A DNA stretch of 64,000 nt from Malacoraja senta (taxonomy: Eukaryota), in contig CM075994.1 of NCBI GenBank assembly GCA_038087875.1, forward strand, positions 5,954,001-6,018,000, written 5' to 3'. The position numbers and the translations under genes are program-made. Positions 266 to 31,859 of the stretch are shown one piece after another. The notes below the pieces were generated by a model. It ran no database searches, was not told where the DNA came from, and worked only from the letters and a program-made list of their open reading frames with translations. Each line of letters starts with the position of its first letter. Within the stretch, counting starts at the first letter, position 1.

Positions 266-2745
266 GGTACCCGGACGTGGCGCCGACGGACGAGAAGCCG
301 AAGCAAAGAAGTGGAAGCCAAATAACCGAATGGAAACGAAGCCGAAACGCCAAATAACCGAATGGAAACGAAGCCGAAACGCCAATTGACCGAAAGGGTG
401 GGACGTCTAAATGCATACTAACCGAAAGGGCGGGACGCCTAAAAGCCAACTAACCGAAAGGCTGCGTCGCCTAAAAGCAAACTCACCGAATGGCCGCTCT
501 GCCGAAACGCCACCTACCCGAAAACCGGCGTCGCCTACAAGCGAACGGACCGAATGCCGCTCAACAGAAAAGTCGAATATCGGGCATGACGTTGCCGGGA
601 GCGGGACATGTCAGCAATTGGTCCAAACCCCCGCGTCCATCACATCACTGTGGAGGGATGAACTTTGTCCCCTTCTCTCTTTGTCCCATTCTCTCTCTCC
701 CCTTCTCTCTTTCTCTCCCTCTTCTGTCTTCCCCCTTCTCTCTCTCCTCCGTCTCCACCGGCGGGAGGATGGGGGCCATTTTCCCACACAAGCCATAGGT
801 GACTGGGCAATCTGAACCCAAGCACCAAGTTGTAAGCGGCCGAAGGTGCGCATCTTTCGGGACAGCCCCCACTCTCCCACGGCCTCATCTCCCCCGTGCG
901 GCTGCACTGTGACGGGCTGTATGTCGGGTGGAGTAGATGTATGGGACAGGCTGGTGCCTCCGCACACCCAGAGTCACTGACCGCGATGCACCGCCATCGG
1001 ACCCCAACCCACACACCAGGGCGACCTCCCCGCACCTCCGATCCCCGGATCCTGACACCCACACCGGGTCATTTACCCAACCCCAGCCGCGGGGCCAGGC
1101 CGCTCGGGCATTGTAAATCGTTTTTAAAACATCGGGGGACACATTCCCTGGAGGGCCGAAGGGAGAGAGAGCGGGGGGGAAGAGAGAAGAGGGGAGAGAA
1201 AGAGAAAAGGGGGGAGAGAGAGAGAAGGGAGTGAGCGGGGGGAGAGAGAGGAGGGGAGAGAGAAGGTGAGAGAGAGAAGATGGGAGAGAAAGAGCGAAGG
1301 GGAGAGAGAGAAATGAGAGAGAGGGGGAGAGGGCACGTGCAGAAAGAGGCGGAGAGAGAGAAGGGGGAGAGAGAGGAGGGAGAGCGAGGGGGAGAGAGGG
1401 AGGTGGAGAGAGAGAAGAGGGGTGAGAAAGAGAGAAGGGGAGAGAGAAGGGAGAGAGGGGGGAGAGGAGAGGAGGGGAGGAGAGAGAGAAGAGGAGAGAG
1501 GAATAGAGAAGGGGAGAGAGACAAGGGAGACAGAGGGGGTGAGAGGGGAGGGAGAGAGAGAGGATGAGAGAGAGAAGTGGAGAGAGAGAAGGGAGAGAGA
1601 GGGTGGAGAGAGAGAGGGAGGAGAGAGCGAAGAGGGGAGAGAAAGGGAGAAGGGGAGAGAGAGGGGGAGAAGGGTGGAGAGAGAAGAGGAGAGAGAGAAG
1701 AGGGAGAGAGAGAAGGGAGAGAGGTGGAGACATAGCGGGAGGAGAGAGAGAAGAGGGGAGAAAAAGAGAAATGGGGAGAGAGAGAAGGGAGAGAGAGGGG
1801 GAGAGAGAGGAAGTGGAGAGAGAGGAGGAGAGAGAGAAGGGGAGAGAGAGAAGAGGGAGAGAGAGAAGGGAGAGGAGGTGGAGACATAGAGGGAGGAGAG
1901 AGAGAAGAGGGGAGAAAAAGAGAAATGGGGAGAGAGAGAAGGGAGAGAGAGGGGGAGAGAGAGGAAGTGGAGAGGGAGGAGAGAGAGACGGGGGAGAGAG
2001 AGAAGGGAGAGTGGGGGGAGAGAGAGGGCCGTGGGAGGGAGAAGGGGGCAGAACGAGAAGGGAGAGAGAGGGGGAGAGAGATGGCGGGGGGAGGGAGAAG
2101 GAGGGAGAGAGAGAAGGGAGAGAGAGAAGGGAGAGAGAGAGGGGGAGAGAGAGAAGAGGGGATAGAGAAGGGGAAGACTTGAGCGTTGGGGTCATTTTCC
2201 CACACAAGCCATAGGTGACTAGGCAATCTGAACCGAAGCACCAAGATGTAAGCGGCCGAAGGTGCGCATCCCTCGGGACAGCCCACACTCTCCCCCTGAC
2301 ACCCTCCGCGGGCTGTGTGTCGGCTGGAGCGGAGGTGTGGGACAATGTTCATCCCTCCACAGTGATGTAACGGACGCGGGGGGTCTGGGCCAATCGCTGA
2401 CAAGTCCCGCCCCCCGGCAACGTCATGTCCGTTATTTGACTTTTCTGTTGAGCGGCATTCGGTCGGTTGGCTTGTAGGCGACGCCGCATTTCGGTAGGTG
2501 GCGTTTCGGCAGAGCGGCCATTCGGTGAGTTTGCTTTTAGGCGACGCAGCCTTTCGGTTAGTTGGCTTTTAGGCATCCCGTCCGTTCCTTTACTTTGCAT
2601 TTAGCCGTCCCACCCTTTCCGTTAGTTGGCGTTTCGGCTTCCTTTCCATTCGGTTATTTGGCGTTTCGGGTTCGTTTCCATTCGGTTATTTGGCTTCCAC
2701 TTCTTTGCTTCCGCTTCCCGTCCGTCGGGGCCACACCCGCACACG
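266..2745. mobile_element. Non-autonomous foldback DNA transposon, probably Mutator-like (MULE)
   Basis: ~405-bp terminal inverted repeats (266-671 / 2339-2745) built from ~30-bp subrepeats (aaataaccgaatggaaacgaagccgaaacgcc); 9-bp TSD atattaaaa at 257-265 and 2746-2754; no transposase ORF. Confidence 0.75.
1160..2178 (+). repeat. GA-rich polypurine low-complexity tract inside the foldback element
   Basis: Nearly pure G/A degenerate repeat; source of the spurious RE/SL-rich ORFs. Confidence 0.95.
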
Positions 2746-3483
2746 ATATTAAAAATGTCTAATGAATGTAATGCAAACCGTTGTATCGTAAATATTGTGT
2801 GCATCTTGAATTACAGAGCGTGCATTATTATTTTCTATCCTTAGTTTGATATTCATTTGGTCAAAATATGTATTCGACTATTGAATTGTTTCACAGTACC
2901 TTTTAGTAGCTACAAAAAATTATGAATTCTCTTCGATTTTTTCAAATTTCTCTCTCGGCATTTTTCTATTTTTATGTCACATGATGCAAATTCTATGAAA
3001 TTATTCACACGTTTTTCATCGATCAAATATCTAAATGACATTCATTCTTCGATTTTCTGCTCCACCATCTGATTTCAGCATATCCATAACGAATTTATTT
3101 TGTTAAGTAAACCAGATTATATTTCATGGTGCTGAAATCAATTGGAGGACGTTTCATATGGGTGCATTTCGAAATAATGTATTTTGTCCCAGAGATCTGC
3201 AGGGAATTGACAGTCTTATAATCGATTAATCATAAAACAATTATAATGCAAACAGCCTAATCCTTCAATGTAAGATACAGGCTATGCAGCGGAACCGTGC
3301 TATATCCTTTCCCAGAAGTGTTTCAATATATTTGTCGTCGAAATAAAGATTTTCACTGACTGTTTATTGATTGTAATTCTTACAAAATCGTACTCATCCA
3401 ACAGTAAGGAAACTAGTTTTAGACGTTGGCGGAAAGGATTAACTTTTATATTCATGCTTCTCTTGCTTCGTTCCTTGGAATAG

Positions 3484-3519
3484 AACCTGACCGGCTGAAA
3501 AAAGCTCTTGTTGATATTG
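3484..3519 (+). CDS. Putative 36-nt phase-1 micro-exon of coiled-coil host gene, (E)PDRLKKALVDI
   Basis: Long pyrimidine tract ...cttcgttccttggaatag acceptor, TTG/gtgagg donor, open in phase 1. Confidence 0.6.
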
Positions 3520-3699
3520 GTGAGGCACTGATTTCAAACATAGAATCCACTATTCAAAGTGAAATTCCGTCAAACTTAGCAACGGTTGCCAATATTTATT
3601 AAAATGCTATTAATGTTATAATGCATTATTTATGCTTTTCATTTGATGTATGAACAGTTGCTACATTTTAAATACATAAATGGATAGTACACGGTGCAT

Positions 3700-4444
3700 G
3701 TCAGATTGGGGAATTTATTATGGGGAACAAAGAAATGGCAGTTGAGTTGAAAAGGTACTTTGGATCCGTCTTCTCTAAGATGGACACAAACAATCTTCCT
3801 GATATAGTAGTGGCCAGAGGATCTGGAGTGAAGGAACAATTGAAGGAAATCCACATTAGGCAGGATATTATGTTGGGTAGACTGACGGGACTCAAGGCTG
3901 ACAAATCCCCAGGGCCCGATGACCTGCATCCCAGAGTACTTAAGGAAGTAGCTCTAGAAATCGTGGATGCATTGGTGATAATTTTCCAATATTCTCTAGA
4001 TTCAGGGTCCGTTCCTGTGGATTGGAGGGTGGCTAATGTTATCCCACTTTTTAAGAAAGCCGGGAGAGAGAAAACAGGGAATTATAGGTCAGTTAGCCTG
4101 ACATCGGTGGTGGGGAAGATGCTGGAGTCAATTATAAAAGATGAGATAGCCGAACATTCGGATAGCAGTAGCAGGATCGGGCCGAGTCAGCATGGATTTA
4201 CGAAGGAGAAATCATGCTTGACTAATCTTCTGGACTTTTATGAAGATGTAACTAGGAAAATGGACAAGGGAGAGCCAGTGGATGTAGTGTACCTGGACTT
4301 TCAGAAAGCATTTGATAAGGGCACACATAGGAGATTAGTGGGCAAAATTAGGGCACATGATATTGGGGGTAGAGTGCTGACATGGATAGAAAATTGGTTG
4401 CAGACAGGAAACAAAGAGGTGGGAGTAACATGTCCATTTCAGAA
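3700..4444 (+). mobile_element. CR1 LINE ORF2 fragment (RT N-terminal part), cut at L1 junction
   Basis: KSPGPDDLHPRVLKE, DWRVANVIPLFKK, NYRSVSLTSVVGK, DVVYLDFQKAFDK motifs. Confidence 0.92.
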
Positions 4445-6662
4445 TCTTCAAAATTCGAATTATCTAGGGGCAACAGACAAGGATGTTCACTATCACCGCT
4501 GTTATTTGCTTTGGTAATTGAACCCCTTGCTGAAAAAATAAGAACACACTCGAATATTCACGGTTATAACACAAAATATTCAAACAACAAACTATCCCTA
4601 TATGCTGATGATGTACTACTGTACATCACAAAACCACAAATTAGTATACCAAATATATTAAACTTAATTGAGGACTTTGGATCCTTTTCAGGATATAGAA
4701 TAAATTGGAACAAAAGTGAAATTATGTCGATTAAACCAAAAGACTCAACACATCTCAGGAAATTCCCTTTTAAAATAGCTATGGAAAAATTCAAATATTT
4801 AGGAATTGAGATTACTAGAAATTACCATGATATGTTTAAAGCTAATTATAATCCCCTACTTAAGAAATTAAATAATCTGATTAAATTTTGGAAAACACTT
4901 CCGATGTCCTTAATAGGTAGGATAAATGCTATAAAAATGATTTTCTTACCACAAATCCTTTACCTATTTCAATCAATACCTATATATCTCCCAAAAAAGT
5001 TTTTCAAAAAACTGGACTCAGACATTACAAATTTTATATGGGATTACAAATCCCACAGAATACAAAGAACACACCTTAACAAACGAAAAGAGGTGGGGGG
5101 TCTAGCGCTCCCTAACTTTATGTATTATAACTGGGCAGTAAATATTAAAAATATGATTCACCTGCTGGACAATTCTGCCCAGCAGGTGGACTGGATTATA
5201 ATGGAAAAAGGGGATTGCTCCCCGAATAATATAGGAGCGATTATTCTCTCTCCAATAAATTTGAATAATAAAAATTATAATAAAAATCCAATTATATATA
5301 GCACTATTAGAACATGGAAGCAAATAAAACAGAATCTAAAATTAAGAAACCTATCTCTCTTAATACCAATAGTCAATAACCCATCGTTTAAACCTTCAAT
5401 CATAGATAAAGCATTTATACAATGGGAAAGAATGGGAATTAAAACGCTCGAAGATCTGTATGAATTAGAAAAATTACTATCATTCCAACAACTACAACTG
5501 AAATATAATTTGAAAAATAATCAATATTTTAAATATATACAAATCTGTGACTATTTGAAAACACACACAAAAGATTATTATAATATGCCTTCCGACTTAC
5601 TAGATGAAGCAATGAAGACAAAGGCGGAATCAGTTAATTTAATATCATACTTATATAATATCATCTTAAATATAGAAATACCCACAACAGATGGAATTAG
5701 AAGAGATTGGGAACAAGATCTAGGTATAAAAATTTCAAAAGAGAGTTGGGATAATCATTTATTACAGGTGCATAAATGCTCGATCAACGTACGACATACG
5801 CTTATCCAATTTAAAACATTACATAGATTATATTATTCAAAAACCAAACTAAATAAAATCTTTCCTAACGTCTCACCAATCTGTGATAAATGTATATGTC
5901 AAGAAGCTACCATAGCACATTCTTTTGTTTTTTGTACAAAAATCCAAAAATTCTGGTTTGAAATATTTGATATTTTTTCAAAATTAATCAAAATAAAACT
6001 GGTACCAAAACCAGAATGGATTATTTTTGGAATATCGGAAGGTATTCCTGAATTAAACGTGTATCAGAAGAATTTACTCAATTATGGGCTAATAATGGGA
6101 AAAAAGCTTATACTTAAATTCTGGAAAAATGCGCCCACACCAACAATAAAAATGTGGACATCAAATATGTTGGAAACATTACATCTGGAAGAGATGAGAT
6201 TCCTCCTAGTAGGTAAAGTAGATCAATTTCAAAAGACGTGGTCTACGTTTTTGGACCTATTACAAGCATGAGGTGCAATAGTAATTTAGAAAAACAAATA
6301 AATAAATAAAAGGTATCTGGACCTGGTAATGGGAGGTAAAATAAAAACAGACTTGGTTGGTAGTTCCTTCTCTATGAAGTATGGTATAAGAGTTATAATA
6401 GAGCGATTGTTCCTTCTTTCTTTCTCTTTTTTTTTCTAGGGTCTATTTTCTAACTTTACTTCCTTCTCTAACCTCTTCTCTAAGGGGCTTTCTTTTCCCA
6501 ACACTCTTTTGCACTTCACAACCTTTGCGCACTTTCTTCACTTTTCTTACTTCTTTCTTTTTCTTTCTTAAAGTTTAAAAAAAATGAAGCGGTACAAAAA
6601 ATGTATTAATATATACGTGTTGTACATTACTGTAATCTACCGTACTTCTAAAAAATAAAATA

Positions 6663-6700
<38 letters not shown>
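4445..6700 (+). mobile_element. 5'-truncated L1-clade LINE #1 (ORF2 RT C-half and CCHC C-terminus, stop 6271; 3' UTR; poly(A))
   Basis: RGNRQGCSLSPLLF, LYADD, GGLALPN, CDKC..HSFVFC; uninterrupted ORF; aataaa plus A-tail to 6700. Confidence 0.95.
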
Positions 6701-6702
<2 letters not shown>

Positions 6703-7926
6703 ATCGATTAATCATAAAACAATTATAATGCAAACAGCCTAATCCTTCAATGTAAGATACAGGCTATGCAGCGGAACCGTGCTATATCCTTTCCCAGAAG
6801 TGTTTCAATATATTTGTCGTCGAAATAAAGATTTTCACTGACTGTTTATTGATTGTAATTCTTACAAAATCGTACTCATCCAACAGTAAGGAAACTAGTT
6901 TTAGACGTTGGCGGAAAGGATTAACTTTTATATTCATGCTTCTCTTGCTTCGTTCCTTGGAATAGAACCTGACCGGCTGAAAAAAGCTCTTGTTGATATT
7001 GGTGAGGCACTGATTTCAAACATAGAATCCACTATTCAAAGTGAAATTCCGTCAAACTTAGCAACGGTTGCCAATATTTATTAAAATGCTATTAATGTTA
7101 TAATGCATTATTTATGCTTTTCATTTGATGTATGAACAGTTGCTACATTTTAAATACATAAATGGATAGTACACGGTGCATGTCAGATTGGGGAATTTAT
7201 TATGGGGAACAAAGAAATGGCAGTTGAGTTGAAAAGGTACTTTGGATCCGTCTTCTCTAAGATGGACACAAACAATCTTCCTGATATAGTAGTGGCCAGA
7301 GGATCTGGAGTGAAGGAACAATTGAAGGAAATCCACATTAGGCAGGATATTATGTTGGGTAGACTGACGGGACTCAAGGCTGACAAATCCCCAGGGCCCG
7401 ATGACCTGCATCCCAGAGTACTTAAGGAAGTAGCTCTAGAAATCGTGGATGCATTGGTGATAATTTTCCAATATTCTCTAGATTCAGGGTCCGTTCCTGT
7501 GGATTGGAGGGTGGCTAATGTTATCCCACTTTTTAAGAAAGCCGGGAGAGAGAAAACAGGGAATTATAGGTCAGTTAGCCTGACATCGGTGGTGGGGAAG
7601 ATGCTGGAGTCAATTATAAAAGATGAGATAGCCGAACATTCGGATAGCAGTAGCAGGATCGGGCCGAGTCAGCATGGATTTACGAAGGAGAAATCATGCT
7701 TGACTAATCTTCTGGACTTTTATGAAGATGTAACTAGGAAAATGGATAAGGGAGAGCCAGTGGATGTAGTGTACCTGGACTTTCAGAAAGCATTTGATAA
7801 GGGCACACATAGGAGATTAGTGGGCAAAATTAGGGCACATGATATTGGGGGTAGAGTGCTGACATGGATAGAAAATTGGTTGCAGACAGGAAACAAAGAG
7901 GTGGGAGTAACATGTCCATTTCAGAA
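6701..7926 (+). repeat. Right copy of 1226-bp duplication
   Basis: Begins immediately after the L1 poly(A); ORFs 7121/7183/7202 duplicate 3639/3701/3720. Confidence 0.95.
6966..7001 (+). CDS. Duplicate of the 36-nt micro-exon (EPDRLKKALVDI)
   Basis: Identical exon and splice sites to 3484-3519. Confidence 0.55.
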
Positions 7927-8495: not shown

Positions 8496-8987
8496 TCCAT
8501 CTTATAACGAATTCATGCAGAATATGGCGCGTACCATGCTTCGTCGACCTAATGCTGCAGCACCGCCACCGCGTCAAAAATTTTAATGAGTTTGTAAAGA
8601 CCATGAAATGAACCAATGTTTTGCAACTGATCTTCTTCGTTGTCTCACCCGCGAGGTATAACTAAATCCAGTCCAGAACCATGCAGAAAATTAGGCTTCC
8701 ACGGTGGATGGATGCTCTGGAAAGTCAATGATTAAAGGGAAAATTGAGCAGCATCCGTCAGTGTAGATGTGTCGTTTTGCCCGCGATGACCACCATTATG
8801 ATGGTCAGAAGGACATTGCTGTTACGTTTCCTACTGCGCAGCCTAATTTTGAGGCAACACATTACTGATAGAATTACTGAGACTTCTTTCTTGAAAAGTC
8901 AAGTTGCAGCCTTTGCATTATTCTTATTCTTTGTTTCTTCTTCTTTTATTCTTTCACGTGACTGAACCTGTGGGCTAAGTGCGGATA

Positions 8988-9140
8988 CAGGGGCGGCACA
9001 GTACCTGTAGAGCAGCGGCTTCACATCGTCAGGGGTGCGGGTTACAAGTGCTGTTTGTACGGACTTTGCACGTTCTCCCTGTGACTGGGTGGGTTTCTTC
9101 TGGGTGTTCCAGTTTCTTCCCACATTCCAGAGACGTGAAT
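8988..9140 (+). mobile_element. V-SINE (HE1-like) fragment
   Basis: ggggcggcacag head; tttgcacgttctccctgtgac..gggtttc..ccagtttcttcccacattccagagacgt V-domain-like core. Confidence 0.6.
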
Positions 9141-9192
9141 GCGTTGACAGTTGTGGGATGCTTACGTGATTGTATCCACCTTTGGTTTTATG

Positions 9193-9338
9193 GTGAAGAT
9201 AGACACAAAAAGCTGGAGTAACTCTGCGGAACAGGCAGCATCTCTGGGGGAGAGGAATGGATGATGTTTCGGGTGAATTACTCAAGCTTTTTGTGCCTAT
9301 CTTCGGTTAAACCAGCATCTGCAATTCCTTCCTTCACA
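9193..9338. mobile_element. Palindromic Penelope-derived short element, internally deleted
   Basis: gaagatagacacaaaaagctggagtaa ... ttactcaagctttttgtgcctatcttc inverted arms; same sequence as the Penelope tail at 35920. Confidence 0.6.
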
Positions 9339-9447
9339 TTCGGTTTCATGGTCGTATTTTTCTGGCTAACTTTTTCTCTCGAAGTAGCATTTTCTTTCAT
9401 GAGACAATTTATGTGCCGGAATATAAAATGAGCCTTACAATCGTTAA

Positions 9448-9585
9448 TTAATTGATAAATAATCGAAAGTCATCTCTGCTTGATGTAGCTTCCATTTTAA
9501 ACTGGAATTTTGCACCGTTCTTCGGCAACAGGATATGAGATCTTGAAATGTGTTTGCTATATCAGAGCAGATCCCGGTAGATTCA
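9448..9585 (+). repeat. Left copy of 138-bp TSD of L1 #2
   Basis: Matches 11704-11841 (offset 2256). Confidence 0.95.
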
Positions 9586-11703
9586 TACTAAAGACTCATA
9601 TAATAAAATATCTTTATACGCGGATGATATATTATTGTATATTACAAAACCTCAAATCACTATACCAAATATATTAAATTTAATTGAAGACTTCGGATCT
9701 TTTTCTGGATATAGAATAAATTGGAATAAAAGTGAAATTATGTCAATAAAACCGAAAGATTCAACACATCTTTTAAAATTCCCTTTTAAAATAGCTACAG
9801 AAAAATTTAAATATTTGGGAATCGAAATTACCAGAGCATATCAAGGTATGCTCAGGGCAAATTTTGACCCCCTACTTAATAAACTGAATACATTAATTAA
9901 ATTCTGGAAAACGCTTCCGATGTCTTTAATAGGCCGAATAAACGCAATAAAAATGATCTTTTTACCACAAATTTTATACCTATTTCAATCAATTCCTATA
10001 TACTTACCTAAGAAGTTTTTTAAAAAACTCGACTCAGATATCACTAATTTTATATGGGACTATAAATCACATAGAATACAAAAAACCCATCTGAATAAAT
10101 CTAAAGTATTGGGGGGTCTAGCACTACCCAATTTTATGTATTATTATTGGTCAGTAAATATTAAAAACATGATTCAACTGATGGATAACTCCGCCCAGCA
10201 AGCAGACTGGATTGTAATGGAGAAAGAGGATTGCTCCTCTAGAAACATTGGAGCGATCCTCCTCTCTCCAATGAAATTGAATAACATAAACTATAATAAG
10301 AACCCAATTATTCATAGTACAATCCGTATTTGGAAACAAATAAAACAAAATTTAAAATTAAGAAACTTATCACTTTTATTACCTATAGTCAATAACCCTT
10401 CGTTTAGTCCTTCTATTATAGATAAAGCTTATACACAATGGGATAGACTAGGAATTAAAACGCTTGGTGACTTGTATGAAACTGGAAAATTACTTTCATT
10501 TCAACAATTACAAATAAAATATAAACTCGGAAATAATCAATATTTTAAATACTTTCAAATATGCGACTATTTGAAAAAATATATAAAAGATCATCATAAT
10601 AACCCAGCAGATGTACTGGACGAGGCAATGCAGACAAAAGCGGAATCAGCAAACTTAATATCATATTTGTACAATATTATCTTAAATGTACAAATACCAT
10701 CTACGGAGGGTATCAGAAGAGACTGGGAACAAGAGTTAGCTATTAAAATTTCAAAGGAAAGTTGGAATGAATACTTATTAAAAGTACATAAATGCTCGAT
10801 TAATGTAAGACACACTTTAATACAATTTAAAATTTTACATAGATTATATTATTCGAAAACTAAAATTCATAAAATTTTCCCAAACGTATCATCTATTTGT
10901 GATAAATGTCAATCCCAAGAAGCAACTATAGCGCACTCATTTGTCTTCTGTACAAAAATTCAAAAATTTTGGAATGAAATTTTTGAAATCTTTACAAAGT
11001 TATTTAAAACAAGACTGATACCCAAAGCAGAATGGATTATCTTCGGAATAACGGAAGATGATCCAGAACTAAATGTGTTTCAAAAGAAATTAATGGATTA
11101 TGGGTTAATAACTGGAAAAAAGCTAATTCTAAAATTTTGGAAGAAGGCTCCAATACCAACTATAAATATGTGGATTTCAAATATGTTTGAAACACTACAC
11201 CTTGAAGAGATAAGACTCCTCCTAGCAGGTAAACCAGATCACTTCCACCTGACGTGGTCTGCATTTATAGAATTATTACAAACATAGGGTGCAAAAGTAC
11301 TTTAAAAAAATAAAAAATTGAGGTCGGGTAAGGGGGGATGATAGTTGAAGAGTTGGTATGTCCTATTTACGTGATGCTCAAAAAAAAAAAACATTTGTTT
11401 TTCTTTTTTTCTCTCTCTCTTTTCTTTTCTTAAGGCCTATTTCTTAACTCTTTTTCTTTTTGTTTTTAATTTCGCTCTCATAGGGTCCTCGTCCTTTTTT
11501 TTTGTTGTTACATTTTCTACACTTTTCTACACTTGCACTTTTTCCTTCACTTTCTTCTCTCTTTCAATCTTTTCTTTCTTTAGTGTAAAAAAAAATAAAG
11601 GGAGTACATTAATTGTAAGAAGATATAAATGACGAGTATTAATGTATGTGGCTGTGATGTAATGTACTTCTAATAAATAAAAATTAAAAAAAAAAAAAAA
11701 AAA
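9586..11703 (+). mobile_element. 5'-truncated L1-clade LINE #2 (same family as #1, different subfamily)
   Basis: ISLYADD at 5' end, open ORF to 11287 collinear with L1 #1, T-rich 3' UTR, aataaa and poly(A). Confidence 0.95.
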
Positions 11704-11841
11704 TTAATTGATAAATAATCGAAAGTCATCTCTGCTTGATGTAGCTTCCATTTTAAACTGGAATTTTGCACCGTTCTTCGGCAACAGGATATGAGATCTT
11801 GAAATGTGTTTGCTATATCAGAGCAGATCCCGGTAGATTCA
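11704..11841 (+). repeat. Right copy of 138-bp TSD of L1 #2
   Basis: Starts right after the poly(A); matches 9448-9585. Confidence 0.95.
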
Positions 11842-11989
11842 GCTTCGTTAAGATCTTTGCGAATTGAATATGTGTGGCAACATATTTGTTTATTAGTGTC
11901 AATTAAATGCTGTGTTTGGAGAGATATTGCCTTTAGTGAGGCACCGTCAATGTAAGTTAATCCTTAACAAACACAAGATTGTGCTAATA

Positions 11990-12222
11990 GTGTGGAGTTT
12001 GCACCTTCTTCCTGTGACTGGGTGGGTATCTTCGGGGTGTTACAGTTCCCTCTCACTTTCCAGAGACGTGAAGGTTTGTATGTTAATTGGCTTTGTAAAA
12101 TTGCTCCTAGTGTGTGGGATGCGAAAGTGGGATAACATAGATCTATTGTAGGGTAATCGTTGATCGGCACGAACATTGATGGAGCGAAGTGCCTGTTGCC
12201 AACTTTTATCTCTAAACACTAA
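11990..12222 (+). mobile_element. V-SINE fragment
   Basis: gtggagtttgcacc..cctgtgac core and ..tctctaaacactaaa tail. Confidence 0.55.
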
Positions 12223-12835
12223 ATTCCACCGAATGTCCATCAGGAAAAGAAAATGTATTCACATCTGTGGGATGTTAACATTATCGTATCTACTTTTCGT
12301 TTTATGGTCATGTTTTTCCTCTATCTAACGGTGCTTTGCGATTTGTATACTGACTCGACAGCACGCGACTGGATAGCACTCAACAAAAACCTTTTCACTG
12401 TAACTGGGTTCACGTGACAATAAACTAAATGAACTGAACTAAATCAGTTTTAGACGTGAAACGAATGTGGCAAACAATAGCACATGAAACAAGAGAAAAA
12501 TGGTAAACTGTGTTTTTTTTAATGACGTATTAATTACAAGATGTGTCATTGTGTCCCGCTGCTCTGATGTGTCATTAATGTCTCAGTGGGCTGATTACCA
12601 GCCTTATCACAGCCTTGGAAAAGAGGAGAGAGAAAATACACCAGTCTTAAATTTGTTAACGAAATATATATTCCAAATACTGCCAATAAAATAAGATCGC
12701 CTCTAACAACGGACATCGTTCTAGAATACGAAACGGCTGTATTAACGCAGAGAAATCTATCATTAATATTGATTTTACATTTCGAAATTCTTTCGCCATT
12801 TGATAATAATTATGTTTTCCCTCTGCCCGTTAAAG

Positions 12836-12859
12836 ACGTGCTAGTAGAAACAAATGCAG
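12836..12859 (+). CDS. Putative 24-nt phase-1 micro-exon, (D)VLVETNA
   Basis: tgttttccctctgcccgttaaag acceptor, CAG/gtaaag donor, open. Confidence 0.5.
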
Positions 12860-12984
12860 GTAAAGGAAGATAAAGCACTACTTTTCATTGGTGCGAATAT
12901 AATTGATATACAAGAAACATAATTTCATGGGTCACACTTAATTGTGATACTCCACTTCAAGCGTCGGAGAGTTTTTAGTTGCCA

Positions 12985-13560
12985 TAAGGGCATAAGGGAT
13001 AGAAGCAGGATTAGGCCATACAGCCTATCAAGCCTGCTCCGCCATTCAATCATGGCTGACCTAGCTCTCCCTCCGAAACCCATTCTCCTGCCTGTTCCCC
13101 ATATCCCATGACACATGTACTAATCATGAATATATTGAACTCTGCCTTCAAAATATCCATTGGCTTGGCCTCCACCCCCTTCTGTGGCAAATAATTCCAC
13201 AGATTTACCACAGTCTGACTGAAGAAATTCCTCTAAATCTCCTTCCGAAAGGAAAGTCCTTTAATTCTGAGGCTATGTCCTCTAGTCGTAGACTCTCCCG
13301 CTTCTTCTTTCGTGCCCAACTTCCATGTTTCAAATGTTGACATCGCTGTCATCTTCCGTCCTGAAAAGGGCGCAAGCATCCGGCGACTATCAGTGGGAGC
13401 CATCACTTGTTGCAATAGATGATGGTGGTGGCATAATTAGCACGGGATATTACCAGTTTCCAGCCCCGCGACGTGAATGCTTCTAGTATGGGGCCAGACT
13501 CTCCCATTAATGGAAACATCCATTCCTCATCCACTCTATCCAGCCCTTGCACTTAATCGG
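12985..13560 (-). mobile_element. CR1 3' fragment interrupted by a short retroposon
   Basis: TRGHSLRIKG motif and CR1 tail on the minus strand. Confidence 0.8.
13300..13495 (-). mobile_element. Short retroposon with (GAA)n tail, possibly Ingi/Vingi-related
   Basis: 10-bp TSD agactctccc at 13290-13299 and 13496-13505; minus-strand end ..ggcacgaaagaagaag. Confidence 0.6.
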
Positions 13561-17365: not shown

Positions 17366-20300
17366 AAATAGCATGCACTATATATTCGCAATCATGGCTC
17401 TTCATCGACTCTTCCATCTTCACGTTCGCCTTCTAGAAGCAAGCACAACTTGGTTATTGGTCTTATTAAAACATTGTTTTTTTTGTTTAAAGTCGTACCA
17501 TACGCACCAAACCCTCAACGTCAGGCATGATTTCTAGTATTCTTCCCATCAACCAAGAACCTCGTGATGCTGTGGAGTCAGCCTTGATAACCCAATATTG
17601 TTTACGAAGTTGGGATAACATATAATTTCTTCCTCCATGTCCAACTTGTTCATGAATATGTCGTGATAATAATGTCGTTATGTAAAAGTCCTTTGAGAGA
17701 ATGATAGGACGTTTAGTTTTTTCGGGCATTGCCAATTTGTTTAGGCGACCACCCATCTGCTGAAAACCTTCCTCCCAGACTGGGTCGAGCTTGTACAATT
17801 GACTGTTTCTTTTTACCCCCTGTCCTCCAGCTTCCAATGTTAGTATTTCTTCTTTGTATTTCTGTCTTTGACAGAAAGAGATGGTCGCATTTTCCGCCTT
17901 GAGGAGATCATCAAGATGTAAACCCTGAACGCCATATGAAGCTTCAAAAACTTGCATCTGGCCTTCAATCTCTCCTTTCCGTTTATCAGGATTCTCTTCC
18001 AGGATACTCTCTGTAATTTGTCTCCTTTTCCGAGCCGCCAGCAATAATCTTGTTTTTATTTTAAGAAACCAGGCTACGGAAGTTATCAATTTATTCCATG
18101 CTGAAAAGTGGGTAATTAAATTGTTCACGGTGTCATATGAGTCTTTAGCAATCACATTCACCGAAATGTTTTGTTTAATTTCCGGATCATTTACAGATAT
18201 TTCAAATCCGAGTTCAAGCTTTGGCCATTCTCTGCTTGGTTCACAAAGAAACTTTAGCCCGTGGATCCATCTACTGTTATATAGAAATCAATTTCCTGTT
18301 AATCCTCTAGAGGCTTCGTCCGCGGGATTTTCTTTTGTGCTAACATATCTCCAATGAGAAACATTAGTAGCTCCCAATACAAAAGAGACTCTATTTGCTA
18401 CAGATGACATAAAGCGTTTGTTTTCATTATTGATGTATTTCAGAACCGTAGTGCTATCGGTCCAGAAGATAGATTCTTCCAGTTGAAATTGTAGTTCCTT
18501 TTGCAGCATTATGTCAATTTTAACAGCTAAGCCTGCTGCTGTAAGTTCCATTCTGGGAATGGTCATTTGGTTCAGTGGTGCCACTCTGGCTTTTCCCATT
18601 AAGAATTCAACATGCATTTCATGCAGTCTTAAACATGAAACAGTCCCGTAACCACTTTCACTGGCATCCGAAAAATGATGCAATTGTGCACCTGATCTTA
18701 CCAAAGTTTTTAGGCTTTATGCACCGATCCACCTTAAACTTTGAAATGTTATGGAGGCCTGTTAACCATTCTGTCCAACGGTGCGAGGATGTTTGAGTTA
18801 TGCCCTCATCCCATCCAAGTTTTCCTTACAAAGATTTTGTAAAATTAACTTGGCTGGCAGTGTAAATGGTGCAAGAAATCCCAAAGTGTCGTATACTGAG
18901 CCAATCACAGATAAGATACCCCTTCTTGTACATGGTCGCTCCTGGATCGACAATTTAAACTTAAACACATCCGTCTCCACGCACCAGTGCAGTCCCAGTG
19001 CCCTTTCCATTGGCAAAATGTTTTTATCTAAATCTAACTCCTTGGTTTCTTCAGCTCTATCATCCGGTGGAATGCTTTCCAATACAACACCATTTGAATT
19101 GCCTCCTGCTCAGTAGATATGGATTTTAGGCAATCGTCCACGTAGAAATTATTTTTCAAAGTGGAAATTACCTCCTCTGGGAAATAATCTTTATTATCCT
19201 CTGCCGTCTTCCTTAAAGCGAAATTCGCACAACTTGGAGATGACACCGCTCCAAAAAGGTGTACTTTCATCCGGTAATCAACAAGATCTTGCTGCACATC
19301 CCCTTCAGGTCACCATAAGAATCGCAGGTAATCAATATGTTTACCAGCTACTTTCACTTGATGAAACATCGATCTGATGTCAGCCATTAAAGCAATCGGT
19401 TCTTGCCTAAATTTGATGAGAACTCCAATGAGTGAATTGGTAAGGTCTGGACCTTGCAGTAGTTCACTGTTAAGCGATGTACCTTTAAAGACTTTAGCAC
19501 AGTCAAAGATCACCCTCAATGTCCCTTTCTTTGAGTGATCCACCCCATGGTGCGGAATATACCAGAGCTCTCCATCACCTCGATATAATTGATTCGTTGG
19601 TACCATTTCGGCATTATCATTATTAATCATATCCTGTAAGAAGGATATATATTCCTCTTGAAATTTCGTGTACTTAGCAAACTTACGTTTCAAATTCTGG
19701 ATACGCTGTTCAGCCATATGACGATTATTCGGTAAACTAACACTTTCTTGCTTGAAAGGTAAGTCCAAACAATAATGTCCATTAATCATCTTAATTGAAT
19801 AGTTCATAATATCCAAGAATTATAATTCTTCTCTGGACATTTCTTCAGATTCTTTGCTGGTACTTTCATTGAAGTCATGACTATATTACTTTATTAACAG
19901 CTTTTCCAATTTACCCGTAGATATTTGATTAACAGCAACAGCACGGCAGTTCACCTGGCTAACGTTTCCATTATTCTTGCTCAAGGAGCCATAGATAACC
20001 CATCCAAGTAGGGTATTCACAGCATACGGTCCATCCCCTTGGCTCCTAACAATCTGTATACATTCTAATGCTTTCAGAGCATTCGTTCCAATAAGCAAGT
20101 CAATATCAGAATTTATCTTTGATATTTTCACATCATTCAGGTAAGGCCATTGCTTTAAGTCTTCACATCTGGGTATATTCTGACGCCCAACATGCATAGT
20201 TCCACGTGTAAAAACTTCTGAAATAGGAATAAAATTATCTTCATCCAAACTGGATATCTCCATATTTGTAATGTAATGACTAGGGTACTCTTTCTCTTTA

Positions 20301-23300
20301 TTCGTGGTACGCATTTGAATTTTAACTTTCTCTCCAGTAATGTCCAGCCTTCTCATCAAATTCTCTGTACAAAAAGTAGCTGAACTTCCGAGGTCCAGAA
20401 ATGCATATGTTTGCAACACTACATTTGTTTCCCTATTTCTCACTTGTACTGGTAAGATAGAGAAAATGCTTGCTTCAACCCCGGCCCCAGTATGAGCAGT
20501 TACTTGACGCGAGGTGACAGTATTAATAGCAGCTGACTCCTCCTTCACCTCTGCATGGTCCGGCTCTTTCTTTACAGGGTGAAGCACATCAGGATGATTC
20601 TGCTTACACTTGTCACAAATTATTGGGCACTTACAGTTTTTTACCATGTGCCCCTTCTTTAGACATCCATAGCAGGTTCCATTTCTTTTTTAAAAGTACA
20701 TCTTTTCTTCACATTTCTTCTCTTTAAATTTACGACACCATGGTGTGACCCACTTCATCACAAAACTGACAAAATCCCTTCTTCTTAATAGTCGGCGCAT
20801 CTTCTATGGCTCCACCTGTCGTCTTCTTGGGTATTATAGTGGTAGCAAAATTGCTTTTCTTAGGCCCTGTTCTTTCTTTAGTTTTGGTAAAGGTAGAATC
20901 TTTATAAGTTGCAAGTGGTCTGCGATCTTCAATAGTTCCGTGGTACGAGTCTAACATGTACCGTACTTCTCTTTCTAAAAATTCCACCAGGTCTGGCAGC
21001 CTGGCTGCTTGTCTGCTCTCATCTCGTATTTTGCCAGCTTCATCTATCCACTTTTCTCTCATTCTTCTTGGCAACTTGCTAATGATGATTCTAATATTAC
21101 TCGCAAGATTCATTTCCTCCATGTAGCCGAGATTTTTCATCGAGCTGCAACAATCTCTCAGAAATATTGCATAATCACTCAATTTTTCCCCATCTTCTGG
21201 CTTGATTTCTTTCCAAGCATGGGCCTTCTCAATGTATGCGATTGCGATCCTCTGTTCATCACCAAAACGTTCTTCACGTAATCTTCTCGCCTTTTTTATA
21301 GCCCTGGTTGCCTGGCTTCTTCTGACAACTGTTAACAAGTACCTTCACACTTCCACTTGTGTACTTCAACAGAAATCTTAAGCGCTCTTTTCCATCCTTA
21401 ACTTTCGTCTCTAATTCCCCCACTAGTGCTCTTACGAAAGTTTCATACTCCAAAGGATCTCCACCATACGTAGGAATTTCTACTGGTAGTAGAATGAGAG
21501 AGATATTTTGTCGAGCTATAATCTCGTTGAATTCTGTTTCCCTATTCAACAGTGCCAATAATCCATCCTGATTCCCTTAGCTTGACTCCACCTGTTGCTA
21601 AACAGGTCTTGGCTCAAACTGGCTTGCTCGAGCCCGTGCTTTAGGCCTTGGAAAAGCGTGGTCCGCTATTGGTCTATCTCGAGCTTGTACGGATGCTCCA
21701 ATAGTAGTTGGTTTCAATTTAGCACCCATTTGCTGAGATGAAGTTTTACCCAACATATTTAGGTTCTCCAAGCCAAGGTATCCGGTCGACCTTGACCGTG
21801 GAATCGATCCAACTGCCAATTCACTCTGAGCATTTTTCTTCTTGGTCTAGAGCTCATCGTCTTCGACGATCTAGAGCATCATCTTGACCCCTCATTTTCC
21901 ATTATGTCCTTCTTGGCTTTGGCCACCGCCATCGTTGTATCTAATTCCAGTTGTTCCTTACGTCCCCTCAGCTCCTCCTGCTGTCGCGTCATCTCTTCCT
22001 TCCTCTGATCGTTCCGTTGTCTCATCTCTTCTTCTTGTCGCGTTATCTCTTCTTTTTGTCTCTCCGTGACTTCTTGATCCCGCTCGATCTCATGTTTTTT
22101 CTTCATGGCATCCGCTTCTATTGAGAGCGCAGCTAACTCAGCTTTAACTTCCAATTGAGCAGAAGCCCTCGAAACCGAACTGGCTGAGCAACCATATCTG
22201 CGGCCTGATCTTCGTGAAGATACCTTTGAGATACTGTCTCCCGGTGCAATATCATTACCTTCTTATTCTTCTTCTTCTTCTTCTGCTTGCTTAGCATCTC
22301 CTTTTCTGTAACATTCACTTTGGCCAACTTCAGCTAACCATGTTTCTGCAACTTCCATGGATTCATCATAAGACTCCGTATTTTCTGAATACCACTTATA
22401 ATGACTTTGACATTCCTCTTGAGATCGCTCTGCTTCCAGCAGTGTGTCCTGCTTTTCTTTAAGGTCATTATTAAGGCTACGTATCAGGCGTAATTTATCC
22501 TTCACATTCTCCAGGTAAGCTTCTGATTCCATGGCTACCTTCACACTTTCAAGTAGCCTTCTAATCCTCTTCCACAACTTGTTTCTATCTGATTCGGTTT
22601 CCTTGAGAACATGAAGTCGACCTTTCTCAGTGAGTTTAACGTGTCTGGCTGGTCTTCTGGTGCATACTGGTGCTCCATCAATCACGAAACTTCCTCCCAC
22701 TTCTTCGCTCATAGTTTAAAGAGGTCTTGGCAGATCGCCAAGTCTTAAAATTATGCGAAAGGAGTAGTCTGCTGGCTTGTTCTTGTATTTTGTCAACAAT
22801 TCTGTCTTAAAGCCTAACAAACTGAGATGGTTTTGAACTTCTCTAACATCCAGGTGCAAAAAGATGATGCCAATTCAAATGGAATTCATGCTTTCACAGG
22901 ATTCAAAACAATCCAAGGTCGGTCTGGCTGGAATCTCTCTTCCACAGACAAATTGAGAAAAACGTTTTCTGATGGCTCTGTTATAAGCAGCCTTTTATTT
23001 GCCGTATAAAATTAAAGCTGTAATAATTCAGTCATAATTGATTTGTACTCACAAATCCACAGATACCTCTTCAGATAAGTCTCGATGCTGTCGATAGACC
23101 TCAAGGCCTCATCTGGCCGAGGTCTTTATCTTCAGTTCCTCCTAGAACCAGTCTTCTTCTGGCTAAGCCTCACCGAGATTTGAAATTATGATGCTTTGTT
23201 TGGTTAGATTTTTTTAAGTACACCCATCCCTCTATTGTTTTATGTGAGATAAATAGGATATACTTTGCGTCGAATCAAATTTCCCGTGTTGATTTCCCCT

Positions 23301-27041: not shown

Positions 27042-30000
27042 AGGTCGATCTGTTTGGAATCTCTCTTCCACAGACAAATTGAAAAAAACGCTTTCTGATG
27101 GCTCTGTTATAAGCAGCCTTTTATTTGCCGTATAAAATTAAAGCTGTAATAACTCAAAGTCATAATTGATTTGTACTCACAAATCCACAGATACCTCTTC
27201 AGATAAGTCTCGATGCTGTCGATAGACCTCAAGGCCTCATCTGGCCGAGGTCTTTATCTTCAGTTCCTCCTAGAACCAGTCTTCTTCTGGCTAAACCTCA
27301 CCGAGATCTTGAAATTATGATGCTTTGTTTGGTTAGATTTTTTTAAGTACACCCATCCCTCTATTGTTTTATGTGAGATAAATAGGATATACTTTGCGTC
27401 GAATCAAATTTCCCGTGTTGATTTCCCCTGCAACCTATTCACATTTGCGCACAATCGTATTTCCTCGTTTCTATCTGTCATCTGTATTTTTATGACAGCC
27501 ATTGAACTCTACCAACCTGCGCATGACTCATCAGCTCGGCTAAACGCGTCACTGCCATTCTGTTTAATTAAAATTCCGTATAAAGGTGAAGCCAACGTCC
27601 AAAACGCATTATTTTGTCACTTTAATATATTTGTAAAATGAGTTTAGTTACGTTACGGCCACTGGAACCAGTGAACCACCCGGAGACTTTTCTGACATCA
27701 GCAGACGGGAACAAAACAAATACGTGCTGTAAATGATTATGTTACACAGATCTGGAGTTTAAATTCATCTTTAATTATAGTACATAGTATAGCGGTACAG
27801 CAGGTTGTTAGTTGCTAATTCATCATCACCGCTTCCAAGACTACCTTATGTAGGAAGTGGGTGTTAATATAAATCATACAATAAGGTGGGGTTAATGATG
27901 CTACTCTACTATGATTGGTTCACATGCAATAACCAATCTACATCCTTCCCTGTAAAGAGCGAATATAGTTAAGCACATGTAAGACGCGCGAATTTAAACA
28001 TACTCGCCGTATCTGTCAGGCGGTCAACTAATACGACCCTAACGCGTACGGACCAACCCCTCCCCTACCGCACCAGAAAGGTTAGTGGGGGGGGGGGCAT
28101 TGAACCCGGAGGGGAGAAAAGCAGTTGGGGGCACTTTAGGCGAAAGATAGGGTGAGCATGCGGGAGAGGTAGTGTTGTTGTTAGACAGGGACGCCGGTGG
28201 AGGCGGAGAACAGGACACGCTGGGACAAGGGATGGCAGCAGCAGTAGCAGACGGTTTGAACATCAGAGGTGGAGCAAGGGGATCGGTTGGTGGCGGACGA
28301 AGTTCTTTTACAAGCAGCAAGTGTTGGCGGCTCCACCTCTACAGGGCACCATCGACGTCGACAAGGTAGGAGCGGGGTTCCTAAGACGGGCCAACAACGA
28401 AACCTAGACGGGAATGTCCCACAGTAGTCTGCAAACGGACGACGTGGCCATGCAGTAGTCGTTTCAGCGGTTTGCTGGACATGTCATAGGATCGTTTCTG
28501 GATGTTGTGTTTCTCCTGGATGCGCTTCTGGACCGCGGCTGGCTTGAACACCTGTGGCACCAGCTTCTGCTTGGAAATTGGTATTGGTATTGGTATCAGT
28601 CGTTGTGCTGGTGAGCCTAGGATCCCGTCTCTAGAGATGTTTCTGAGGTTTAAAAGGTCCAGATACACATCCGACTTGCCCAGGTGGGAGCATTCCATTA
28701 GTTGGTTTGCGCTCCTGACGGCCCGTTCAGCGAGCCCGTTACTTTGAGGGTATTCAGGGCTGCTTGTGACATGGTGGAAGTTCCATCGGTTGGCAAAGTG
28801 TTTGAATGCGTGACTGGTAAATTGTCTTCAGTTGTCAGTTTGCAGGCGGACTGGTGCGCCGGACTGGTGTTTCTGTAGCTTTTGAATTACCATTTCTGAT
28901 GTGATGGAGGGCAGTAAATCGAGTTCGAACCAGTTAGAGTAGGAGTCGATCAGGACTAAATACTGTTTACCGTGCCATTCGAAAATGTCTGCTGCCAGCG
29001 ACGTCCAAGGCAGTGCTGGTGGGGGTTATTGTAGCAGAGGCTGTTTCTGTTGTTGTGGTGCCAAACTGTTGCAGATGGGACAGGAGGCTCTGTCCCGTAT
29101 GTACTTGGCCATACCGGGCTAGTAGAACATGCTCTGTGCGTGGGCCAACGTGGCATCGGTACCTGGGTGACCGTTGTGTGCCTCTTTGTAGCATTCGTCT
29201 TGTAAGGATGAAGGGATCACGAGTTTGTGGCCTTTAACTATGACACCGTCGTGTATTACCAACTCATCGCGGACTAGGAAGAACGGCTGCACCTCCAGTG
29301 GCGTGCTGGATTGCCTGTCTGGCCAGCCTCTTTTGATTATGGATGAGAGTAGCTGAAGAGTGCCATCAGCGGCTGTGTGTTCAGCCAGACGTCGCAATCG
29401 TTCCGTGGGAACGAAGTCGATCTTGAGAACCGTAAGCTCATCCCATTCATAGGGGTGTCGTTCACTGGATGCACGTGGTGCACGAGAGAGAGTTTCAGCA
29501 ACGAGCATGTCCTTTCCTTTTTTGTAAACGATTCTGAAGTCGAACCGCTGGAGCTACATCATCATGCGCTACAGTCGTGCAGGTGCTGCGTGCATAGGTT
29601 TATTAAGGATGGTTACAAGTGGCTGGTGGTCTCTTTCGACAGTGAAAGTGTTGCCGAAAATGAAGTCTGAATTTTGAATAAGCGAAGACCACAGCTAGCA
29701 GCTCTTTCTCGATCTGCGCATAGCGCTGTTCGGTGTTCGTCATGGTGCGGGAGTCGTAAGATATAGGTAGTACAGTCCCATCGGCAGATGTTGTTTTTTT
29801 TAATATTAGAAGCAAATGTGCAAAAATAGAATCAACGGCATATGAAATAATACAGTTATTGTACAGCTTCCCGTTTACCTTTAAGCTATAGTTGGAAGAA
29901 AAGAAAGGAGAAAAAGTGAAATGTGCAAAGATAGAACCCCTAGACTACCAAAGTGGTGTAGCCAAAGAGTGAATAAATGAAAGAAAGAAGAGAGGAATAG

Positions 30001-31859
30001 AAATAAGAAAAATAAAAGGACATAAAGAGAAAGAAAGAAAAAAGTGGTGATATACCTGCCTCTCATCCCTCCCCACCCACCTCACCCAACCCGTAATTAG
30101 ATATAAATCCAAAGTTGTTTTGTACCATACCATCCTTGTAATAAATCAATGAATGGTGTCCATGTCTTCGAAAAATGATCTGGTTTTTCTGCCTAGACAA
30201 GTCTAATATTTTCAAGATGTAGCGTCTCGGACACGTTCATAATCCACATCTTAAGAGTAGGGACTGATGTATGTTTCCAAAATGTGAATATTCGTTTTTT
30301 CGCCGTTATCAGGCCATAATTAAGGAAACGTCTGAACTAATGATAGCTCAGACGTACCTAGAATGATCAATCGGCAGATGTTTGAAGGCAGGTTGCGGGC
30401 TTCTGACGTACCTAGAATGATCAATCGGCAGATGTTTGAAGGCAGGTTGCGCCCAGCCCGTATTGTGAGGCATCGCAGGTTATCGTGACAGGACGCTTCA
30501 GGTCGAAGAATGTCAAGGTGGGAGCGCAGGCCAGCTTGGTTTAAAAAAAATCAAATACTTGTTGATGCTGCTGCTACCAGGTCCACTCAGTGTCCTTTCG
30601 GGTGAGTTATCTCAGTGGCGAACTTAGTTCGCTGAGATTCGGTATGAACTTTCCCAGATAGTTCACCATACCCAGAAATTGTTGTAGGGTTAAAACGTCG
30701 GTGGGGGCTAGCATCTCTCTGATGGCAGCAGTTTTCTTCGGGTCGGGCTTGAGGTCCTCAGAAGTGAATACGTGTCCGACATTGGGGACCTCTGGAACCC
30801 GCAACTTGCATTTATTAGGGTTGAATTTCAGCTTGTTCTCACGTGCCCTGTCCATAATACGCTTTAGGTTGATGTCATGCTCCGCTACGTCTTTGCCAGG
30901 ATGTCATCTACAATGATGGCACACGGTAGTCCTTCGAACATCTGTTACATGGTTCTTTGAAAAACCTCGCTGGCCGTGTTTATGCCGAATGGCATCCTAA
31001 GAAATTTGAATCTGCCGAATGGTGTGGCAAGCGTGGTGAGGTTTGATGACTCGTCATCCAGTGGTATCTGCCAATACGAGCTTTCAAGTTCAAGTGAGTT
31101 TATTGCCATGTGTCCCTGATAGGACAATGAAATTCTTGCTTTGCTTCAGCACAACAGAACATAGTAGGCATTGACTACAGCATTTTTGAGCTTTTTGCTT
31201 CGAGGACAGAAAAAACTGTTGCGCGCCCGATTTGTGCAGCGATGTCCTCGACAGTTCTCATCGGATAATGCGGGCGCTTAATGGCAGCGTTCAAGTCTTT
31301 TGGATTGATGCACACGCGGAGCTAGTTTTTGTCTTTCTTATAAGTGACAACCATGGTGGAGACCCAGTTTGTGGGTTCGCTCATTTCGGCTAGTACACCC
31401 ATGGAGACCATGTTTTTTAGCTCAGTCTCAATTCTGTTTCGCATGGCATGTGGCACACGGTGGGGGGGCACGGGCGGCTGGGTCGATGGTGGGGTCAATG
31501 GCGATCTTATAAGTCACAGGCAGCTTGCCTAGCTTGCCATCGAATAGATCAGGATACCTTTTAATCAGATATTAGCAACTTGTGAACGGTGCGGTCGAAG
31601 GAAACCAGCCCTAGGTCTTGGCACGCATGGATGCCCAGGAGAGTCACAGTCAGATTTTAAGATATAGAAAGTCAGATTTCTTGTGGTGTTTTTCAGAACA
31701 CATTTAAAGGTAGTTCTTCCAAGAGGATACAGGACTTCCTGTCCATAAGCATGTAAGGTAGAGCTGTCTCTAGTCAAGGTCTAATTATTTATTATCTTCT
31801 TGTAGACATTCACAGACATTACATTCACGTGGGCCCCAGTTTCCAGCTTGGCCTTCACA
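27042..31859 (+). repeat. Tandem segmental duplication copy 2
   Basis: Junction ..ttggccttcac|aggtcg.. at 27041/27042; collinear with copy 1. Confidence 0.9.
29793..30423 (-). mobile_element. L1 3' fragment inside Gypsy (copy 2) with ordinary 13-bp TSD
   Basis: atcggcagatgtt at 29780-29792 and 30424-30436; local ~54-bp tandem duplication at its 5' end. Confidence 0.8.

What the first reader, a model, noticed from the sequence alone, without database searches (positions are those of the whole stretch)
9448..11841. Second, independent L1 of the same family also has an oversized (138-bp) TSD
Seen: 9448-9585 matches 11704-11841 around a diverged sister L1, with nick context gtt|aatt. An unrelated older L1 fragment in this window (29793-30423) has a normal 13-bp TSD. 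Inference: long TSDs may be a property of this L1 family or of host repair, making it a systematic generator of local duplications.
Basis: partly seen in the sequence, partly recalled or inferred. Interest (0 to 1): 0.7.

Follow-up and report, generated by a model that had tools for sequence, protein, structure and literature searches.

The report
Skate L1 insertion with 140-bp duplication
A recently inserted, truncated L1 jumping gene in what is likely a skate genome is bracketed by a perfect 140-base copy of its landing site (another sample carries that site once, without the L1), and a neighbouring sister L1 is bracketed by a 1,227-base copy, so these L1s likely make oversized duplications far more often than the usual 7-20 bases, although this is untested across the family.

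Summary
Observation confirmed and strengthened. 9446-9585 equals 11702-11841 (140 bp, 100%; 138 bp if two leading A's belong to the tail), around a 5'-truncated, poly(A)-tailed L1 with an open ORF2 end. A contig from another sample is the empty allele: upstream flank, one copy of the 140 bp, downstream flank, no mismatch. So this is a real target-site duplication (TSD) of a segregating insertion. The neighbour with the 1,227-bp duplication is a sister lineage, not the same young family (80% nt, dS 1.1). The older L1 fragment's 13-bp TSD is confirmed. Likely mechanism: endonuclease-primed reverse transcription completed at a distant top-strand break supplied by host replication or repair. Single long TSDs are known from cultured cells, and family-wide ones from Dualen and R9. 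I found no report for a vertebrate germline L1 lineage, and three surveys I read cap TSDs at 25-30 bp. Family-wide frequency was not testable (no genome held). Three distant fish L1s had 15-16 bp TSDs. The scan noted one-off 113-bp TSDs in two other genomes. Odds that long TSDs are at least a frequent tail here: about 0.7; the usual outcome: about 0.35.

The parts
9446..9585 (+). Left copy of the 140-bp target-site duplication; begins at a TT|AA step; last base is a 1-nt microhomology with the L1 body
   Evidence: microhomology from the loose ends at 9585 in runs X11, X12, X13
9586..11287 (+). L1b: 5'-truncated L1 ORF2 (end of RT to C-terminal Cys/His motif), frame open to the stop
   Evidence: 49% to full-length fish L1 ORF2s, 81% over part to a Leucoraja erinacea protein
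11288..11701 (+). L1b 3' UTR with AATAAA signal and poly(A) tail (A-run 11686-11703, the last two A's shared with the TSD)
11702..11841 (+). Right copy of the 140-bp TSD, 100% identical to the left copy
3218..4444 (+). Left copy of the 1,227-bp duplication around the neighbour L1a; cuts an old RT-bearing (CR1-like) fragment
4445..6699 (+). L1a: 5'-truncated sister L1 with open ORF2 end, 3' UTR and poly(A); homology to a full-length L1 ORF2 starts exactly at 4445
6700..7926 (+). Right copy of the 1,227-bp duplication (1 mismatch); the cut RT-bearing fragment continues beyond 7926
29780..30436 (-). L1c: older, unrelated-family L1 3' fragment (29793-30423) inside a Gypsy pol region, with a 13-bp TSD (29780-29792, 30424-30436); the in-window control

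Best explanation
This is a young, still-segregating, 5'-truncated L1 insertion whose 140-bp target was duplicated, likely because reverse transcription primed at an endonuclease-type nick was finished at a top-strand break 140 bases away that host replication or repair, rather than the L1 endonuclease, would have supplied, and such events are likely frequent among young L1s of this host. Steps: (1) bottom-strand nick at TT|AA 9445|9446 and priming on the poly(A) (junction shown, nick inferred); (2) cDNA synthesis stops after about 2.1 kb (shown as 5' truncation); (3) the cDNA end joins a top-strand end at 9584/9585 through 1 nt of microhomology (junction shown); (4) the 140-nt staggered gap is filled on both sides, giving two identical copies (product and empty allele shown; origin of the distant break inferred from cell-culture work). 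The same route with a break 1,227 bases away explains the neighbour L1a (inferred; its empty allele was not tested).
For: Empty allele: run X12 record 11 (311 nt, depth 29.2) maps 9312-9463 then 11720-11878 with 0 differences and 0 gaps, i.e. 274 + 37 = 311 nt with one copy of the repeat. In run X11 the contigs break exactly at the first 31-mer of the repeat (record 3 ends at 9475; record 7 has 18 unplaced letters before 11720), as expected if the poly(A)-side junction is in the reads (inferred). Hallmarks: poly(A), AATAAA, TT|AA context at both L1a and L1b, open ORF2. Human ORF2p nicks the top strand only at +7, +11, +19 and models at about 20 nt (PMC7617806, passages), so 140 bp is beyond that reach. 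TSD length depends on host factors: median 1,495 bp in NER-deficient cells against 14 bp after complementation, and over 100 bp in at most 10% of HeLa events (PMC5223499, passages); cell-line dependence also in PMC4245944 (passages). Two separately selected lineages (dS 1.10, dN/dS 0.09) both give long TSDs of different lengths, which points away from a fixed protein ruler. Nearest full-length ORF2s carry only APE endonuclease and RT (3 of 3 full-length ones scanned).
Against: Frequency rests on 2 of 2 copies that lie 1.5 kb apart, so a locus effect is not excluded. The third L1 in the window has a 13-bp TSD, and a recent ~790-bp insertion at 62370-63159 has a 0-2 bp duplication, which argues against a host that always makes long TSDs. 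Of 23 distant fish L1 loci with an A-run, 3 had clear TSDs, all 15-16 bp, and none had a long one (short-read contigs would tend to break at long repeats). X11's contig runs unbranched through the repeat's right end, so the 5' junction was not seen in that graph. All mechanistic support comes from human and chicken cells, none from this host.
Confidence: 0.62

Rival explanations
1. Both long duplications are true TSDs but rare outliers of an ordinary 7-20 bp distribution, seen together by chance or because this particular locus favours distant breaks (for example a replication-stalling site).
For: One-off long TSDs occur in wild-type cells: 1 of 25 ZfL2-2 inserts had 1,228 bp in DT40 (PMC2666801, passages). 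Two earlier scan notes describe one-off 113-bp TSDs in other genomes (unchecked). The two insertions are 1.5 kb apart, near a 1.1-kb polypurine tract, in a window with other tandem duplications.
Against: At a 1-3% rate two independent long TSDs in the only two young L1s have probability 1e-4 to 1e-3; my rough bookkeeping with assumed priors left 0.01-0.18 for this class. The other tandem duplications show no poly(A) at the junctions inspected.
Confidence: 0.22
2. Long TSDs are encoded by this L1 lineage itself: its ORF2p unwinds or slides much further before the second nick, or has lost the ability to make the near second nick.
For: Both long-TSD copies belong to one subclade (81% aa) while the short-TSD copy is a different family. 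Family-level precedent exists: more than half of Dualen-4b insertions had duplications over 50 bp, median 900 bp (PMC9977147, passages).
Against: No second nuclease domain in the nearest full-length relatives, though these are only about 49% identical and the family's own 5' half is not in hand. Lengths differ ninefold. The short-TSD control is older, and long-TSD copies would be lost faster by recombination (inference).
Confidence: 0.3
3. The repeat is an assembly artefact or a pre-existing tandem duplication into which the L1 landed.
For: No listed contig spans the filled allele, and X11's contig is unbranched at the repeat's right end.
Against: The empty allele has one copy, not two. The repeat starts exactly after the poly(A) and ends exactly at the truncation point with 1 nt of microhomology. 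X11's graph branches at the repeat's first 31-mer.
Confidence: 0.04

Closest known systems
Human L1 insertions with large TSDs in cultured cells, above all NER-deficient cells (Servant et al., PMC5223499; Gilbert 2002/2005 and Symer 2002 as cited there)
   Same: Poly(A)-tailed, endonuclease-site, 5'-truncated L1 with a variable TSD of hundreds to thousands of bases
   Different: Here natural, inherited and segregating in a likely skate; two sister lineages; no known repair defect
Dualen-4b_cRei LINE of Chlamydomonas (PMC9977147)
   Same: Variable, very long TSDs as a common outcome (median 900 bp)
   Different: Dualen has both RLE and APE endonucleases; the relatives of this element have APE only and match human ORF2p end to end; frequency here is unmeasured
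R9 of the rotifer Adineta vaga (126-bp TSD; seen only as cited in PMC9977147)
   Same: TSD of similar size to 140 bp
   Different: R9 is rDNA-specific with one TSD length; here targets are unrelated and lengths are 140 and 1,227 bp
Ordinary vertebrate L1-clade copies (TSD 7-20 bp; PMC7617806, PMC2912911, PMC12633430)
   Same: ORF2 architecture, poly(A), TT|AA-type nick, 5' truncation with microhomology
   Different: TSD 7 to 60 times longer than the upper end of that range

Membership tests
L1 clade non-LTR retrotransposon | ORF2 reverse transcriptase most similar to L1 ORF2p | tested here: met
   RVT_1 hit; named hits are LINE-1 RT-like proteins; a profile of the two copies plus 21 relatives matches human ORF2p at E 5e-263 against 4e-33 for R2
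L1 clade non-LTR retrotransposon | N-terminal APE endonuclease and ORF1 | not testable with these tools
   Both copies are 5'-truncated; relatives at about 49% identity have the endonuclease domain and an upstream ORF
L1 clade non-LTR retrotransposon | C-terminal Cys/His motif, 3' poly(A), 5' truncation | tested here: met
   C-X2-C-X8-H-X4-C read in the translation and weak zf-RVT hit below cut-off; A-run 11686-11703
L1 clade non-LTR retrotransposon | First nick at a TT|AAAA-like site | tested here: met
   GTT|AATT at L1b and CTT|ATAA at L1a, degenerate matches only
Canonical L1 insertion product | TSD of 7-20 bp | tested here: not met
   140 bp with single-copy empty allele
Same young family as L1a (4445-6699) | Near-identical ORF2 and 3' UTR | tested here: not met
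   80.3% nt, dS 1.10, 3' UTR at most about 70% in a gapped global alignment; L1b has its own 99%+ copies (13,562 of 57,939 contig pieces laid in X11, a count that also includes other repeats of the stretch)
Dualen-type long-TSD LINE | Both RLE and APE endonucleases | tested here: inconclusive
   No RLE in 3 of 3 full-length relatives scanned; the family's own full-length element was not available
Dualen-type long-TSD LINE | Most insertions with duplications over 50 bp | not testable with these tools
   No genome held; no family copies found in metagenome, viral or prokaryote collections
R9-type fixed long TSD | One target sequence and one TSD length | tested here: not met
   Two unrelated targets, 140 and 1,227 bp; no Rfam scan for rDNA was run

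The most novel reading that the evidence does not exclude
Skates carry active L1 lineages for which TSDs of hundreds to thousands of bases are a usual germline outcome, making L1 a routine generator of local tandem duplications in a vertebrate; this has been missed because TSD surveys stop at 25-30 bp.
Probability: 0.35. Interest if true: 0.75.

Novelty: new variant of a known kind. Interest (0 to 1): 0.5.

Why it matters
How the second strand is broken and joined in L1 insertion is still disputed (ORF2p nick against replication intermediate; PMC7617806 and PMC10830416). A natural vertebrate lineage with frequent long TSDs would give thousands of germline events to test this, and would add a route to exon- and enhancer-sized local duplications. 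The surveys I read define TSDs as 5-30 bp (PMC2912911), 5-25 bp (PMC12016303) or under 30 bp (bioRxiv 10.64898/2026.06.26.733778), so such events fall outside their TSD counts. If the family-wide test fails, this is one well-documented outlier of modest interest.

Tried and rejected
Genome-wide TSD tally: impossible, no genome is held. Family copies with flanks: none in metagenome contigs with the single protein, viral contigs or prokaryote genomes. A profile search gave 80 distant L1 loci; 53 whose match reached near the ORF2 end were scanned, 23 of those with an A-run were checked, 3 gave clear TSDs (15, 16, 15 bp), one a doubtful 10 bp; the rest gave nothing usable. Runs X13 and X14 (other organisms) cover only the L1 body and repeats, so no orthologous empty site was seen. 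L1a was outside the stretch laid, so its empty allele is untested. 3' transduction rejected: the repeated DNA lies after the poly(A) and matches this copy's own upstream flank. A single compound event for L1a and L1b rejected: 80% identity and separate TSDs. An endonuclease-like top-strand site hidden by 4 nt of microhomology at L1a's 5' junction was considered; the closest homologues have a different residue there, so it is not supported. No poly(A) at the junctions of the window's other tandem duplications, so they are not evidence for L1-made duplication. No earlier scan notes for this genome or look-alike DNA. Literature searches without a report of family-wide long TSDs in a vertebrate or cartilaginous-fish L1: (listings only; open-access library; figure 4K and supplements of the 2026 vertebrate SV preprint, which may show skate TSD lengths under 30 bp, were not visible).

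Full report
Observation. Exact extension shows 9446-9585 identical to 11702-11841 over 140 bp. The longest exact repeat in 200 shuffles of the region was 16 bp. Between the copies lies the 3' part of an L1: an open 568-codon frame 9581-11287 with the end of an RT domain and a C-terminal Cys/His motif, a 3' UTR, AATAAA and an A-run at 11686-11703. A profile of this protein, its neighbour and 21 relatives matches human L1 ORF2p end to end (E 5e-263) far better than R2. The closest named proteins are from Leucoraja erinacea (81%, 69%, 63%, 61% over parts), so the host is likely a skate or close relative (inference).

Is it a true TSD? Contigs of four public runs were laid on 8500-13000. In run X12 (organism C, sample S8), record 11 is 311 nt and maps to 9312-9463 and then 11720-11878 with no difference and no gap. 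That is the upstream flank, one copy of the 140 bp and 37 nt of downstream flank: 274 + 37 = 311. This is the empty allele. In run X11 (same organism label, sample S7) one contig ends at 9475 and the next has 18 unplaced letters before 11720, a break exactly at the first 31-mer of the repeat, which is what a second incoming path from the poly(A) would cause (inferred). Against this, the X11 contig runs unbranched through the repeat's right end, no listed piece spans the filled allele, and X11 could be the assembly's own source. Loose ends at 9585 in three runs continue into upstream L1 sequence, so the 5' junction is a clean truncation with 1 nt of microhomology. Runs X13 and X14 covered only repeats.

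The neighbour. L1a (4445-6699) is flanked by 3218-4444 and 6700-7926, 1,227 bp with one mismatch. Homology to a full-length ORF2 begins exactly at 4445, and the old RT-bearing element cut at 4444 continues after 7926, as expected of a TSD; its empty allele was not tested. L1a and L1b are 80.3% nt and 81.5% aa identical over 558 codons, dS 1.10, dN/dS 0.09, with poorly alignable 3' UTRs. They are sister lineages that were active separately, both recently. Both start their duplication at a TT|A(A/T) step.

The control. L1c (29793-30423, minus strand) has a 13-bp TSD inside a Gypsy pol region. It is 59-61% aa identical to L1b and predates a tandem duplication whose two L1c copies are 94% alike. 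It differs in both family and age, so it does not separate element from host. A recent ~790-bp insertion of unknown kind at 62370-63159 has only a 0-2 bp duplication.

Mechanism. Shown: poly(A)-primed 3' junction, truncated 5' junction, duplicated target, single-copy empty allele. Inferred: the source of the far break. Human ORF2p nicks the top strand at +7, +11 and +19 and is modelled to reach about 20 nt (PMC7617806, passages); the alternative model uses a replication intermediate instead of a second nick (PMC10830416, passages). In NER-deficient cells TSDs had a median of 1,495 bp against 14 bp after complementation, and the authors propose a distant unrelated nick; over-100-bp TSDs never exceeded 10% in HeLa (PMC5223499, passages). 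Break-induced replication is proposed for 1-10 kb duplications at L1 sites (bioRxiv 10.1101/2024.12.14.628481, passages). TSD patterns vary with cell line for the same L1 (PMC4245944, passages). Variable lengths in two lineages with no second nuclease in their nearest full-length relatives favour a host-supplied break.

Is it systematic? Not testable directly: no genome is held and no family copies turned up in contig collections. Of 80 distant L1 loci, 53 were scanned and 23 with an A-run checked; 3 had clear TSDs of 15, 16 and 15 bp (28-40% identity to L1b), none long, but short-read contigs would tend to break at long repeats. A rough calculation with priors I assumed gave 0.29-0.76 for 'about half long', 0.20-0.64 for 'a 10-20% tail' and 0.01-0.18 for 'rare, chance or locus'. 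I shade this down because the two copies are 1.5 kb apart and two unchecked scan notes describe one-off 113-bp TSDs elsewhere: about 0.7 for at least a frequent tail, about 0.35 for the usual outcome.

Comparison with what is known. Single long TSDs are known in cell assays, including 1 of 25 ZfL2-2 inserts at 1,228 bp (PMC2666801, passages). Family-level long TSDs are known for Dualen-4b (over half above 50 bp, median 900 bp) and, as cited there, R9 (126 bp) (PMC9977147, passages). In 51 of 51 de novo human sperm Alu insertions TSDs were 8-18 nt (PMC12633430, passages). A dog study notes that very long apparent TSDs can come from recombination rather than retrotransposition (PMC13141329, passages); here the poly(A), nick site and unique target argue against that. 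Surveys cap TSDs at 5-30 bp (PMC2912911, passages), 5-25 bp (PMC12016303, passages) and under 30 bp (bioRxiv 10.64898/2026.06.26.733778, passages and one methods section). Seven searches of the open-access library (listings) showed no report of frequent long TSDs in a vertebrate germline L1; subscription papers, figures and preprint supplements were not visible.

Verdict. A real, segregating L1 insertion with a verified 140-bp TSD, next to a sister L1 with a probable 1,227-bp TSD: a new variant of a known kind. The family- or host-wide claim is open and cheap to settle with any skate long-read assembly. Interest 0.5.

Noticed in passing
window 22916-31859: Tandem duplication of about 4.1-4.8 kb (93-95% alike) inside a minus-strand Gypsy element, carrying both copies of L1c; the first copy has lost about 700 bp next to L1c's tail, and the second has a 57-bp repeat at L1c's 5' junction; no poly(A) at the 27042 junction.
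   Followed up: partly
window 47304-52698 and 52214-64000: Minus-strand Gypsy element with 97%-alike LTRs and a 6-bp flanking repeat, followed by a tandem array of period about 3.93-3.95 kb in which each unit starts with about 20 bp of internal sequence plus one LTR copy.
   Followed up: no
window 62370-63159: GC-rich insertion of about 790 bp in only the third array unit, ending in an AATAAA-containing tail, with a 0-2 bp duplication; kind unknown.
   Followed up: partly
window 272-671 / 2339-2734: 397-bp inverted repeat (91%) around a 1.1-kb polypurine tract, about 500 bp from the L1a duplication; a candidate for a locus effect on replication.
   Followed up: no
window about 17460-22900, minus strand: Decayed LTR-retrotransposon-like element (weak integrase zinc-domain hit); looks BEL/Pao-like from recalled motifs, not tested.
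   Followed up: no
runs X13, X14 on window 9585-11670: Contigs 98-99% alike to the L1b body occur in runs labelled as two other organisms (for example 682 nt with 6 differences), so the family is shared and little diverged across species.
   Followed up: no
window 9194-9310: High-copy short element with inverted ends just upstream of the TSD (many opposite-strand joints).
   Followed up: no
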